Source of the DNA: Escherichia phage vB_EcoM-UFV09
Length of the DNA stretch: 64,000 nt
Sequence record: MZ291552.2
Direction: 5' to 3' (one strand)
Under the pieces are notes generated by a model. It worked only from the letters and a program-made list of their open reading frames with translations, searched no databases and was not told where the DNA came from. Shown in pieces: positions 35,390-35,696 of the stretch (position 1 is its first letter; each line of letters begins with the position of its first letter). The position numbers were made by a program, and so were the translations under genes.

Positions 35390-35440
35390 AAGCCTTGCGG
35401 CAACCTTGTCGGGGTTCCACCTGCTAAGGCAAGTGTTTGT

Positions 35441-35532
35441 ACGAAACGCCGGGATTCGAACCCGGTTATTAAGCAGTTGACGCTACTCAATATTTTTAAA
35501 AGGCCATATCTCGACCATATCCGAACGTTCCG
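35441..35532 (-). ncRNA. tRNA-like structured RNA candidate (degenerate tRNA or small stable RNA) in a 300-bp GC-rich non-coding block
   Basis: Perfect T-arm CCGGG-TTCGAAT-CCCGG, 7-bp acceptor-like stem (CGGAACG/CGTTTCG); no encoded CCA; no ORF on the coding strand. Confidence 0.3.
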
Positions 35533-35696
35533 TCAAAAACGCTACTCGGCTTACGGCAAAGATATTTCCTCGAATCGATAATTCGGTGCGCCGTTTCTGC
35601 TGTGATAGTAAAGAGCCAGAACACAGTAAAACTGTGGGAGGAAACTATACTCCAGGGAACATCAGTCCGACGACTTACCGGTAGCGACCCGGTTTC

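What the first reader, a model, noticed from the sequence alone, without database searches (positions are those of the whole stretch)
35395..35696. GC-rich 300-bp non-coding block with an embedded tRNA-like element
There is no credible ORF on the transcribed (minus) strand here; the only ORF-track call (35336..35581, plus) runs against the local transcription direction. GC content is clearly higher than the surrounding phage DNA. On the minus strand there is a perfect tRNA T-arm (CCGGG-TTCGAAT-CCCGG, 35449-35465) closed by a 7-bp acceptor-like stem (35442-35448 with 35526-35532), but without encoded CCA and with an atypical D/anticodon region. This could be a small stable RNA of the kind T4 encodes near its tRNA genes (RNA C/D), a tRNA pseudogene, or a processing signal recognised by RNase P.
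Basis: seen in the sequence. Interest (0 to 1): 0.5.

Follow-up and report, generated by a model that had tools for sequence, protein, structure and literature searches.

The report
T4-type stable RNAs rnaD and rnaC
This GC-rich block holds two small stable RNAs (rnaD and rnaC, "species 2 and 1") that T4-like phages make from the tail of their tRNA operon; they have been known for about 50 years and their job is still unknown, and comparing relatives shows that rnaC is a tRNA-shaped molecule whose two extra arms pair with each other through their end loops.

Summary
The window is a Tequatrovirus, 100% identical here to Escherichia phage vB_EcoM-UFV05. The flagged block, read on the minus strand, is the orthologue of T4 rnaD (35700..35585) and rnaC (35578..35440). 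A conserved 50-nt trailer and an intrinsic terminator (35389..35366) follow. rnaC matches T4 at 137 of 139 bases. In detail: no credible ORF, GC 0.48 against 0.35, and an exact T-arm at 35449-35465. Its acceptor-stem partner (35526-35532) is wrong. In 21 distinct homologues from at least seven Tevenvirinae genera, the 3' strand pairs with the 5' end of rnaC (35571-35577). That pairing has compensatory changes, and the stem is perfect in Yersinia phage TG1 and Klebsiella phage phiKp_22. rnaC is a tRNA-shaped four-way junction: an acceptor stem, a 70-nt arm in the D-arm position, a 10-bp hairpin and a canonical T-arm. The two hairpin loops (UUGACG and CGUCAA) are complementary in every homologue and covary at two positions. 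rnaD has a 5' hairpin, a rod-like body and a hypervariable distal arm. Neither RNA is in Rfam. Their function is unknown; a tRNA mimic or decoy role is my inference. Novelty: already known.

The parts
35585..35700 (-). rnaD (species 2 RNA) orthologue, 116 nt. Its first bases overlap the TAA stop (35699-35697) of the upstream 116-aa ORF.
   Evidence: Alignment to T4 rnaD, L001 5054-5172. The 5' 41 nt and the 3' ~23 nt are near-identical to T4; the middle is replaced.
35677..35693 (-). rnaD P1: 5' hairpin ACCGG-GUCGCUA-CCGGU
   Evidence: The closing pair covaries: A-U in 11 sequences, G-C in 6, G.U in 3. W70 has U-A at the second pair. Karam, Moon and Jiaoda phages have a different 7-bp hairpin at the same place.
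35668..35674 (-). rnaD P2, 5' strand GUCGUCG. It pairs with 35586-35593.
   Evidence: Invariant in T4-type sequences. Moon and Kanagawa phages have CGUCC/GGGCG instead of CGUCG/CGGCG (by inspection).
35586..35593 (-). rnaD P2, 3' strand CGGCG(C)AC
35658..35661 (-). rnaD P3, 5' strand UGUU. It pairs with AGCA at 35598-35601.
   Evidence: U-A in 14 sequences, A-U in 4, unpaired intermediates in 2; also U.G changed to C-G in 1. The register predicted by minimum free energy breaks in 11 cells. Karam-type sequences have UUAAU/AUUAA.
35598..35601 (-). rnaD P3, 3' strand AGCA
35607..35651 (-). rnaD P4: distal hairpin arm, hypervariable among T4-like phages. At least four sequence types exist.
   Evidence: The base of the arm covaries at 4 of 5 pairs.
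35579..35584 (-). 6-nt A/U-rich spacer GAAUUA between rnaD and rnaC. The same AAUUA leader follows the CCA of the preceding tRNA in Moon, PG7 and the Klebsiella phages.
35440..35578 (-). rnaC (species 1 RNA) orthologue, 139 nt. It is a tRNA-shaped four-way junction.
   Evidence: 137/139 identical to T4 rnaC. Minimum free energy -50.2 kcal/mol, z = -4.55. Covariance model R1 scores 168 bits and finds this single copy in the window.
35571..35577 (-). rnaC acceptor stem, 5' strand CGAUUCG (nt 2-8)
   Evidence: Pairs with 35442-35448. Pair 4: A-U in 9, G-C in 12. The two U.U positions become U-A/C-G in TG1 and U-A/A-U in phiKp_22. Pair 7: C-G in 20, U-A in 1.
35442..35448 (-). rnaC acceptor stem, 3' strand CGUUUCG (nt 131-137)
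35501..35570 (-). rnaC long arm (nt 9-78, about 26 bp in five helical segments) in the position of a tRNA D-arm.
   Evidence: 97-100% of cells paired, with covarying pairs. Klebsiella-type variants have an unrelated sequence of the same length and shape.
35531..35536 (-). Tip loop UUGACG of the long arm (nt 43-48): one partner of the loop-loop pairing.
   Evidence: All 126 cells paired with the CGUCAA loop, and two positions covary.
35467..35492 (-). rnaC 10-bp hairpin (nt 87-112) in the anticodon-arm position.
   Evidence: 9 of 10 stem pairs show changes on both sides.
35477..35482 (-). 6-nt loop CGUCAA (nt 97-102): the other partner of the loop-loop pairing.
35449..35465 (-). rnaC T-arm CCGGG-UUCGAAU-CCCGG (nt 114-130)
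   Evidence: two covarying stem pairs. The loop keeps the tRNA T-loop consensus.
35390..35439 (-). 3' trailer, absent from the RNA annotated in T4 and nearly invariant across Tequatro-, Mosig- and Dhakaviruses.
   Evidence: Its role is unknown.
35366..35389 (-). Intrinsic terminator AGCCCCGACC-AAAA-GGUUGGGGCU followed by a run of U.

Best explanation
The block is the rnaD-rnaC ('species 2' and 'species 1') stable-RNA module that closes the tRNA operon of T-even phages. Shown here: it is orthologous to the two RNAs annotated in T4, lies downstream of the 11-tRNA cluster on the same strand, and ends at an intrinsic terminator. Taken from the T4 literature: the cluster is transcribed as one long precursor that ends after the species I gene and is cut into tRNAs and the two RNAs. 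Shown here by comparison of homologues: rnaC is a 139-nt tRNA-shaped molecule. Its 5' and 3' ends form a 7-bp acceptor stem next to a canonical T-arm. The D-arm is replaced by a 70-nt irregular arm, and the anticodon arm by a 10-bp hairpin with a 6-nt loop. The loops of these two arms (UUGACG and CGUCAA) are complementary and covary. rnaD has a 5' hairpin followed by a rod made of three helices (P2-P4), with conserved internal loops and a hypervariable tip arm. Inferred: the acceptor/T-arm stack is what lets RNase P and the 3' trimming enzymes cut rnaC out, since the T4-annotated ends fall within 1-2 nt of the helix ends. The RNA cannot decode, because it has no 7-nt anticodon loop. It most likely acts as a tRNA mimic that binds or diverts a tRNA-recognising protein of the host or the phage. 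That functional step is a guess; I give it about 0.2-0.3.
For: Identity: 100% to UFV05; 760 T4-like records match; T4 annotation of rnaC and rnaD; rnaC 137/139; rnaD ends identical; trailer plus terminator 74/79. Context: 11 tRNAs at 36066-37080 on the minus strand; terminator. Literature: PMC2330249 describes one ~1.75-kb primary transcript ending after the species I RNA gene; PMC9697503 detects RNAC by Northern and classes RNAC/RNAD as late RNAs of unknown function; PMC3014915 says their roles are unknown. rnaC fold: RNAalifold gives the same architecture for two unrelated arm sequences; z = -4.55; 47 pairs, 98.4% paired, 11 pairs with double changes, 0/500 shuffles reach this; 21 distinct sequences; 21 of 34 pairs with double changes; loop-loop helix 100% paired, reading A-U/G-C/C-G at one position and C-G/U-A/A-U at another; acceptor pairs covary. 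Searches show perfect acceptor stems in TG1 and phiKp_22; the covariance model finds one copy in the window and none of the true tRNAs. rnaD fold. Conservation of rnaC inside tRNA clusters without rnaD (Moon, PG7, Pet-CM3-4) fits excision by the tRNA-processing machinery.
Against: No expression data exist for this particular phage. Rfam gives no hit, so the family assignment rests on homology to T4. The alignment used for the loop-loop count (A7) is made of extracts that I located with motif patterns, which favours finding the motifs; the flanking stems covary independently, which limits this concern. The acceptor stem has two U.U mismatches in 19 of 21 sequences. rnaD is not more stable than shuffled sequence (z = -0.28). 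Its P2 helix is invariant within T4-type sequences, so P2 rests on two other lineages that I read by eye. Whether the loop-loop pairing is intra- or intermolecular is untested. rnaC is missing from some close relatives (Dhakavirus MX01; CC31 and others), so it is dispensable in at least some lineages. No result here bears directly on function.
Confidence: 0.85

Rival explanations
1. A 93-nt tRNA-like element (acceptor 35442-35448 with 35526-35532, plus the T-arm) embedded in a larger non-coding block. ARAGORN calls the same element in some relatives.
For: Seven consecutive pairs can be drawn in this sequence. ARAGORN and GenBank call a 95-96-nt 'tRNA' on this basis in PG7 (tRNA-Met), G9062 (tRNA-???) and KKP_3262 (tRNA-Phe). 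Rfam tRNA-Sec gives a weak match in this register (16.6 bits, E = 2.8).
Against: The only variable pair breaks in 4 of 19 sequences. The 5' partner is absent from six Klebsiella-phage homologues that keep the 3' strand. It cannot pair in TG1 or phiKp_22. The same bases are accounted for by the tip hairpin and the kissing loop, both of which covary. The three 'anticodons' called in relatives disagree with one another.
Confidence: 0.02
2. A decayed tRNA gene (pseudogene) or a neutral leftover of tRNA-cluster rearrangements, with no function of its own.
For: It lies in a tRNA cluster, has a T-arm, and is lost in some lineages.
Against: 21 of 34 pairs show compensatory changes across at least seven genera. 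The length is conserved at 138-143 nt despite complete replacement of arm sequences. The loop-loop complementarity is maintained through four different sequence pairs. rnaC is 98.6% identical between T4 and this phage, while neighbouring sequence diverges.
Confidence: 0.03
3. Purely cis-acting RNA: a structured 3' end of the tRNA-operon transcript that directs RNase P / RNase E cuts and protects upstream tRNAs or mRNA. The excised pieces would be inert by-products.
For: It sits at the operon's 3' end before the terminator. tRNA-like shapes are RNase P substrates (established knowledge). In this phage an ORF lies just upstream. The trailer is highly conserved.
Against: In Moon, Karam and Tegunavirus phages rnaC sits in the middle of tRNA clusters, not at a 3' end. 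The long arm and the kissing loops are not needed for an RNase P signal. The T4 RNAs accumulate as discrete species.
Confidence: 0.12
4. Base-pairing regulatory sRNAs that act on host or phage mRNAs through their conserved single-stranded stretches.
For: Reviews call them 'small regulatory RNAs' without data. rnaD has conserved internal-loop sequences, GACUGA/GAAA and CCCUG/AUCAC.
Against: No target is known, and PMC3014915 states that no trans-acting sRNA has been characterised in T4. The most conserved loops of rnaC pair with each other. The internal loops of rnaD differ between the T4-type and Karam-type versions.
Confidence: 0.1
5. A protein-coding gene: the 81-aa plus-strand ORF 35336..35581, or the short minus-strand ORFs, as annotated ('hypothetical protein') in many GenBank records.
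For: ORFs exist and are annotated in UFV05 and others.
Against: The ORF runs through the terminator and across the boundary between the trailer and rnaC. The variation is compensatory on RNA helices. T4 itself annotates RNAs here. There is no supporting evidence for the start codon or for coding.
Confidence: 0.01

Closest known systems
Bacteriophage T4 rnaC (species 1 RNA) and rnaD (species 2 RNA), misc_RNA T4s001/T4s002 in NC_000866
   Same: Orthologues. rnaC is 137/139 identical. rnaD has identical 5' and 3' parts. Order, strand, trailer and terminator are the same, at the end of the tRNA cluster.
   Different: The distal arm of rnaD (P4) is a different sequence type. A 116-aa ORF (phrog_3355) separates tRNA-Arg from rnaD here, as in T2L-type clusters. 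A 157-aa ORF with a second copy of the terminator follows.
Canonical tRNA
   Same: 7-bp acceptor stem made of the 5' and 3' ends. A T-arm with the GGUUCGAAUCC consensus stacked next to it. Located in a tRNA operon. Probably matured by the same enzymes.
   Different: No D-arm (a 70-nt arm takes its place). No 7-nt anticodon loop (a 10-bp stem with a 6-nt loop that pairs with another loop). No CCA encoded in this phage. Two U.U mismatches in the acceptor stem. Not called by ARAGORN or by the Rfam tRNA model here.
tRNA-like domain of tmRNA (SsrA)
   Same: A stable RNA with an acceptor stem plus T-arm but no anticodon, matured by RNase P (established knowledge).
   Different: No tag reading frame and no pseudoknot ring. 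139 nt rather than ~360 nt. No G3:U70/ACCA alanine identity set conserved. ARAGORN finds no tmRNA.
Bacterial and mycobacteriophage Y-RNA-like YrlA RNAs (tRNA-mimicking module)
   Same: A non-coding RNA carrying a tRNA-like module, sometimes encoded next to tRNAs in phages (from my own knowledge).
   Different: In YrlA the 5' and 3' ends form the Ro/Rsr-binding stem and the tRNA-like part is internal. Here the ends form the acceptor stem itself. No Rfam match to any Y RNA family.
phi29 packaging RNA (pRNA)
   Same: A phage RNA of ~120-170 nt with two loops that are complementary to each other. In pRNA they pair between molecules, 'hand in hand' (from my own knowledge).
   Different: No sequence or fold similarity. 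T4 DNA packaging is not known to need an RNA. Whether the rnaC loops pair within or between molecules is untested.
P1/P7 C4 antisense RNA and other non-tRNA RNase P substrates
   Same: Phage small RNAs released from a precursor by RNase P through a tRNA-like acceptor/T-type stack (cited in PMC11143913).
   Different: C4 acts by antisense pairing to a known target. No target is known for rnaC.

Membership tests
T4 rnaC (species 1 RNA) | Sequence homology over the full length of the T4 RNA | tested here: met
   137/139 identical with no gaps. Covariance model built from homologues scores 168 bits, E = 1e-40.
T4 rnaC (species 1 RNA) | Position: last RNA gene of the tRNA cluster, same strand, followed by the trailer and an intrinsic terminator | tested here: met
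T4 rnaC (species 1 RNA) | Accumulates as a discrete stable RNA of ~140 nt in infected cells | not testable with these tools
   Shown for T4 only (Northern blot, PMC9697503).
T4 rnaD (species 2 RNA) | Sequence homology to the T4 RNA | tested here: met
   98 of 124 aligned columns identical. The 5' 41 nt and the 3' ~23 nt are near-identical; the middle arm is replaced by another type that is also found in other T4-like phages.
T4 rnaD (species 2 RNA) | Position immediately upstream of rnaC, separated by a 6-nt spacer | tested here: met
   Unlike T4, it is not directly preceded by tRNA-Arg.
Canonical tRNA | Acceptor stem formed by the 5' and 3' ends, stacked on a T-arm with the T-loop consensus | tested here: met
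   The stem has two U.U mismatches in this phage.
Canonical tRNA | D-arm and a 5-bp anticodon stem with a 7-nt loop | tested here: not met
   A 70-nt arm and a 10-bp stem with a 6-nt loop instead. ARAGORN makes no call in the window. The Rfam tRNA model gives no match.
Canonical tRNA | 3' CCA (encoded or added) and aminoacylation | not testable with these tools
   Not encoded here (U-A-C-A-A). It is encoded as U-CCA-A in the Klebsiella-phage homologues L022, L023, L076, L087 and L016. Post-transcriptional addition cannot be tested here.
tmRNA | tRNA-like domain plus a tag-peptide reading frame and pseudoknots | tested here: not met
   ARAGORN finds no tmRNA. No Rfam tmRNA match at E <= 10.
Any Rfam 15 family (including Y RNA/YrlA, hammerhead, sRNAs) | Covariance-model match at the gathering score | tested here: not met
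   No match in 35366-35700 at the gathering score. At E <= 10 there are only sub-threshold matches, which I take to be chance.
   UUGACG/CGUCAA, UUGGCG/CGCCAA, UUGAUG/CAUCAA and UUGCAG/CUGCAA; all 126 cells paired.
   No data. I do not file the RNA under this family.

The most novel reading that the evidence does not exclude
rnaC may be a dedicated tRNA mimic. It would present a genuine acceptor/T-arm 'elbow' while its other two arms are locked together by a covarying 6-bp loop-loop pairing. T4-like phages would use it to occupy or divert a tRNA-recognising factor, for example a host tRNA-directed defence nuclease or an enzyme that modifies the acceptor end. rnaD, with its hypervariable tip arm, would be under host-driven diversifying selection. 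That would fit the single convergent SNP in rnaD that raised the virulence of a T4-like phage on E. coli ECOR34 (PMC12685909). As far as I can tell from the library I could search, the tRNA-shaped fold with the kissing loops has not been described, but the 1970s papers on species 1 RNA are not held there, so I cannot exclude that part of it was.
Probability: 0.2. Interest if true: 0.65.

Novelty: already known. Interest (0 to 1): 0.33.

Why it matters
The element is a textbook feature of T4 and its presence here is expected. What remains open is its function: two abundant, conserved phage RNAs have had no assigned role since the 1970s. The comparative structure gives concrete handles for experiments. 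These are the true acceptor stem, a covarying loop-loop pairing, an encoded CCA in some Klebsiella phages, and a hypervariable arm in rnaD. There is also a practical point about annotation. Many GenBank records annotate this block as 'hypothetical protein' or call rnaC a tRNA-Met, tRNA-Phe or tRNA-OTHER, and Rfam has no family for either RNA.

Tried and rejected
1. Rfam at the gathering score and at E <= 10. Nothing usable; the tRNA-Sec match (16.6 bits) uses the register I later rejected.
2. Rejected.
3. Hammerhead ribozyme, suggested by CUGAUG...GAAA in rnaD. The order of elements is wrong, CUGAUG is absent from Karam-type rnaD, and Rfam gives no match.
4. K-turn or C/D-box reading of GACUGA/GAAA in rnaD. 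The tandem G.A geometry does not fit, and the loop differs between subtypes.
5. Pairing between rnaD (GUCGG...GUUCC) and the trailer (GGAAC..CCGAC). L030 changes GUUCC to GCUCC without any change in the trailer.
6. A tRNA-like ACCA 3' end for rnaD. Not conserved: CACC, CACA and CAAA all occur, and Karam types have GCCG.
7. The P3 register of rnaD from the minimum-free-energy fold. It breaks in 11 cells, while the alternative register covaries.
8. It reads G-C in PG7 and A.C in Moon, and the register itself is wrong.
9. The metagenome pattern scan gave two GC-rich false positives (L079, L083). The rnaD pattern scan of viral contigs gave many false positives, which I removed by composition and context.
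10. The old literature on species 1/2 RNA processing (the p2Sp1 precursor, RNase III and RNase F work) is not in the searchable library. Statements about it are left out or marked as recollection.
11. The accession of phage BW1 is not given in PMC12685909. I could therefore place its SNP within rnaD only by arithmetic on the published coordinates: about nt 73, in the P4 arm.
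Full report
What the window is. A megablast of 35300-35750 against the phage collection finds 760 records, nearly all Escherichia/Shigella T4-like phages. Four of them (vB_EcoM-UFV05, -06, -10, -11) are 100% identical. ARAGORN and Rfam place a cluster of 11 tRNA genes at 36066-37080 on the minus strand, just upstream in the direction of transcription of the flagged block.

Checking the observation. The sequence is as described.
- GC is 0.483 in 35395-35696, against 0.351 for the whole window.
- The minus strand carries only a 53-aa TTG ORF and a 42-aa GTG ORF.
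- The T-arm CCGGG-TTCGAAT-CCCGG is at 35449-35465.
- The terminator hairpin AGCCCCGACC-AAAA-GGTTGGGGCT followed by a T-run is at 35389-35366.
- The 7-bp pairing of 35442-35448 with 35526-35532 can be drawn, with one G.U.
All items are therefore present. Whether the last one is the real pairing is treated below.

Identity. In the T4 reference (NC_000866) the stretch between e.8 and tRNA-Arg carries two misc_RNA features: rnaC ("small, stable RNA; species 1 RNA", 139 nt) and rnaD ("species 2 RNA", 119 nt). The window aligns to them base for base.
- rnaD corresponds to 35700..35585.
- A 6-nt spacer corresponds to 35584..35579.
- rnaC corresponds to 35578..35440 and is 137/139 identical.
- A 50-nt trailer and the terminator follow; trailer plus terminator are 74/79 identical.
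- rnaD is identical at both ends, but its middle is a different sequence.
According to Brok-Volchanskaya et al. [quoted passage not shown] This gives a ~1.75-kb precursor of the tRNAs and of species I and II RNAs. The same paper describes T2L-type clusters with extra tRNAs and two ORFs, which is the arrangement seen here. Wolfram-Schauerte et al. (PMC9697503) detected RNAC by Northern blot and classed RNAC and RNAD as late RNAs "of yet unknown functions". Uzan and Miller (PMC3014915) state that their biological roles are unknown. Rfam 15 has no family for either RNA.

Distribution. Distant BLAST, pattern scans of viral and metagenome contigs, and a covariance model recovered homologues well beyond T4.
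- rnaC occurs in Tequatro-, Mosig- and some Dhakaviruses next to rnaD.
- rnaC occurs alone, inside tRNA clusters, in several groups. In Moonvirus it lies between tRNA-Met and tRNA-Gly. In Karamvirus PG7, Pet-CM3-4 and EnA02 it lies between tRNA-Trp and tRNA-Gly. In Tegunavirus TG1 it lies before tRNA-Trp. It is also present in Kanagawavirus-like and other Klebsiella phages and in Jiaodavirus phiKp_22 after tRNA-Pro.
- rnaC is cleanly absent from Dhakavirus MX01, where rnaD runs straight into the trailer, and from CC31.
- rnaD-like RNAs lie between tRNA-Asn and tRNA-Asp in Karam and Jiaoda phages.
- Unexpectedly, rnaD also lies directly after a tRNA-Met in two Vequintavirinae phages, W70 and A73.
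- Several GenBank records annotate rnaC as tRNA-Met, tRNA-Phe or tRNA-OTHER, or lay hypothetical proteins over it.

Structure of rnaC. RNAalifold and single-sequence folding give the same architecture for the T4-type sequences and for a second, Klebsiella-phage type. The central 70 nt of that second type are unrelated in sequence, yet its total length is the same, 139-141 nt. The window RNA folds to -50.2 kcal/mol, z = -4.55 against shuffles. The fold is a four-way junction with these parts.
- nt 2-8 (35577..35571) pair with nt 131-137 (35448..35442), so the 5' and 3' ends form the acceptor stem.
- nt 9-78 form a long irregular arm.
- nt 87-112 form a 10-bp hairpin with the 6-nt loop CGUCAA.
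- nt 114-130 form the T-arm.

Testing the two rival acceptor stems. I counted pairs on tool-made alignments. In the end-to-end model the variable pair reads A-U in T4-likes and G-C in all other lineages, with no exception. Two further homologues settle the matter. In Yersinia phage TG1 the acceptor is CGGUCCG/CGGACUG, so the two U.U mismatches of T4 become U-A and C-G. In phiKp_22 it is ACGGUAUG/CAUACCGU, a perfect helix followed by CCA. In both phages the segment equivalent to 35526-35532 cannot pair with the 3' strand. In the Klebsiella type that segment does not exist at all. The T4-annotated ends of rnaC fall 1 nt before and 2 nt after this helix. That is what maturation by RNase P and 3' trimming would give; this step is inference.

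A loop-loop pairing in rnaC. The tip loop of the long arm, UUGACG (nt 43-48; 35536..35531), is the exact complement of the hairpin loop CGUCAA (nt 97-102; 35482..35477). Both hexamers are invariant in all T4-, Moon- and Karam-type sequences and in the Kanagawa type, even though the stems that carry them differ completely. Where the hexamers change, they change together.
- UUGGCG with CGCCAA in four Klebsiella-phage sequences.
- UUGAUG with CAUCAA in TG1.
- UUGCAG with CUGCAA in phiKp_22.
On the 21-sequence alignment A7 all 126 cells of this 6-bp helix are standard pairs. One position reads A-U in 16, G-C in 4 and C-G in 1. Another reads C-G in 19, U-A in 1 and A-U in 1. For the whole structure, 21 of 34 pairs show changes on both sides, and no shuffle or slid control comes near this.
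One caveat applies. A7 is built from extracts that I located by motif, so the presence of the motifs is partly by construction. Their positions in hairpin loops are supported independently, because the flanking stems covary at 5 of 6 and 9 of 10 pairs. I cannot tell whether the loops pair within one molecule or between molecules. The conserved length of both arms suggests that geometry matters.
Two further observations fit a tRNA-like shape but are not tests. A GG dinucleotide (35505-35504) just 5' of the base of the long arm is kept in the T4-, Moon-, Karam-, Tegunavirus- and Klebsiella-type sequences I inspected; I could not place it with confidence in phiKp_22. It could play the part of the D-loop G18-G19 against the T-loop. 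The 3' flank reads U-N-C-A-A in all lineages: UACAA here, UCCAA in Klebsiella phages and UUCAA in TG1. This echoes N-C-C-A.

Structure of rnaD. Comparison of 20 T4-type sequences, plus reading of the Moon, Kanagawa, Karam and Jiaoda versions, supports four helices.
- P1 is a 5' hairpin. Its closing pair reads A-U in 11, G-C in 6 and G.U in 3, and other lineages have a different 7-bp hairpin at the same place.
- P2 is a closing helix, GUCGUCG with CGGCG(C)AC. Moon and Kanagawa have CGUCC/GGGCG instead.
- P3 is a short helix, UGUU with AGCA, reading U-A in 14, A-U in 4 and unpaired intermediates in 2. Karam types have UUAAU/AUUAA.
- P4 is a distal arm whose base covaries, and whose body exists in at least four unrelated sequence types among close relatives.
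The register of P3 predicted by free energy alone is contradicted. rnaD is not more stable than shuffled sequence, so its structure rests on covariation alone.
The only functional hint in the literature I could search concerns rnaD. A single convergent SNP in the rnaD of a T4-like phage arose in all three lines adapted to E. coli ECOR34 (PMC12685909).

How it most likely works.
- Shown: the block is the rnaD-rnaC module; rnaC has a tRNA-type acceptor/T-arm stack and a loop-loop pairing; rnaD has a 5' hairpin and a rod-like body with a variable tip.
- From the literature on T4: the RNAs are cut out of the tRNA-operon precursor and accumulate.
- Inferred: RNase P and 3' exonucleases define the ends of rnaC. 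rnaC cannot decode. It acts as a mimic that binds or diverts some tRNA-recognising protein. I put that last step at 0.2-0.3. The main rival, at about 0.1, is that the module is only a cis-acting processing and stability element.

Verdict. The finding is real and correctly interpreted in outline, but the element is already known and expected in any T-even-like genome. The added value is the correction of the acceptor stem, and a covariation-supported fold for an RNA whose function has been open for decades. I score interest at 0.33.

Noticed in passing
window 34802-34837 and 35357-35392 (terminators at 34834-34811 and 35389-35366, minus strand): Two copies of the same terminator, 94% identical over 36 nt and 555 nt apart, flank a 157-aa ORF (34842-35315, phrog_2280, unknown function). 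T4 does not have this ORF; T4 continues after its single terminator with the sequence found here after the second copy. It looks like an ORF cassette inserted together with a duplicated terminator.
   Followed up: partly
window 35697-36047 (minus strand): A 116-aa ORF (phrog_3355, unknown function) sits between tRNA-Arg and rnaD, where T4 has nothing. Its TAA stop overlaps the first bases of rnaD as defined by homology. This is the T2L-type arrangement described in PMC2330249.
   Followed up: partly
window 35390-35439 (minus strand): The trailer between the 3' end of rnaC and the terminator is almost invariant across Tequatro-, Mosig- and Dhakaviruses, and is kept even where rnaC is deleted. 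Part of it (CCCCGAC-AA-GGUUG) looks like a degenerate copy of the terminator arms. I have no explanation for its conservation.
   Followed up: partly
window 36222-36335 (minus strand): A 114-nt gap between tRNA-Asn and tRNA-His has no called gene. It contains a TTGACG...TATAGG promoter-like stretch.
   Followed up: no
L007 1493-1590 (Escherichia phage W70, Vequintavirinae; also A73): A clear rnaD homologue lies directly after a tRNA-Met in a phage of a different subfamily: its own 5' hairpin, an identical core, and a Karam-like distal arm. It is followed by a promoter-like sequence rather than by rnaC or the trailer. This suggests horizontal transfer of the RNA gene between phage groups.
   Followed up: partly
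L007 about 1315-1405 (phage W70): Upstream of that tRNA-Met is a ~90-nt element with an acceptor-like GCGCGGG/CCCGCGC pairing and a GAAGG-TTCGAGT-CCTTC T-arm. ARAGORN does not call it.
   Followed up: no
L006 1570-1860 (Klebsiella phage vB_KM5a1-KLB31): About 300 nt of GC-rich non-coding sequence downstream of the rnaC homologue contains another T-arm-like motif (GTAGG-TTCGAGC-CCTAT). It may be a further unannotated structured RNA.
   Followed up: no
L015 2575-2713, L004 505-647, L016 2580-2706: In Karam and Jiaoda phages the rnaD-like RNA is followed, before tRNA-Asp, by another ~130 nt of conserved non-coding sequence that starts with a CCGAAAG...CUUUCGG hairpin.
   Followed up: no
GenBank records KJ101592 (PG7), PQ898399 (SonariX), OK210076 (KKP_3262), NC_054920 (G9062), OP572230 (UFV05) and many others: rnaC is annotated as tRNA-Met, tRNA-Phe or tRNA-OTHER, or is covered by 'hypothetical protein' CDSs. 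The three tRNA identities disagree with each other, and all rest on the rejected fold.
   Followed up: yes
L005 1500-1690 (Dhakavirus MX01), compared with L011 and L040: rnaC is precisely missing between rnaD and the trailer in MX01 (also in vB_EcoM_005 and L030), whereas related phages with the same rnaD 5' flank keep it. This points to a recent clean loss, so rnaC is dispensable in some settings.
   Followed up: partly
window 35677-35693 (plus strand): The consensus scan reports a terminator-like site on the plus strand here. It is simply the complement of the rnaD P1 hairpin followed by T-rich sequence, and is probably of no significance.
   Followed up: no
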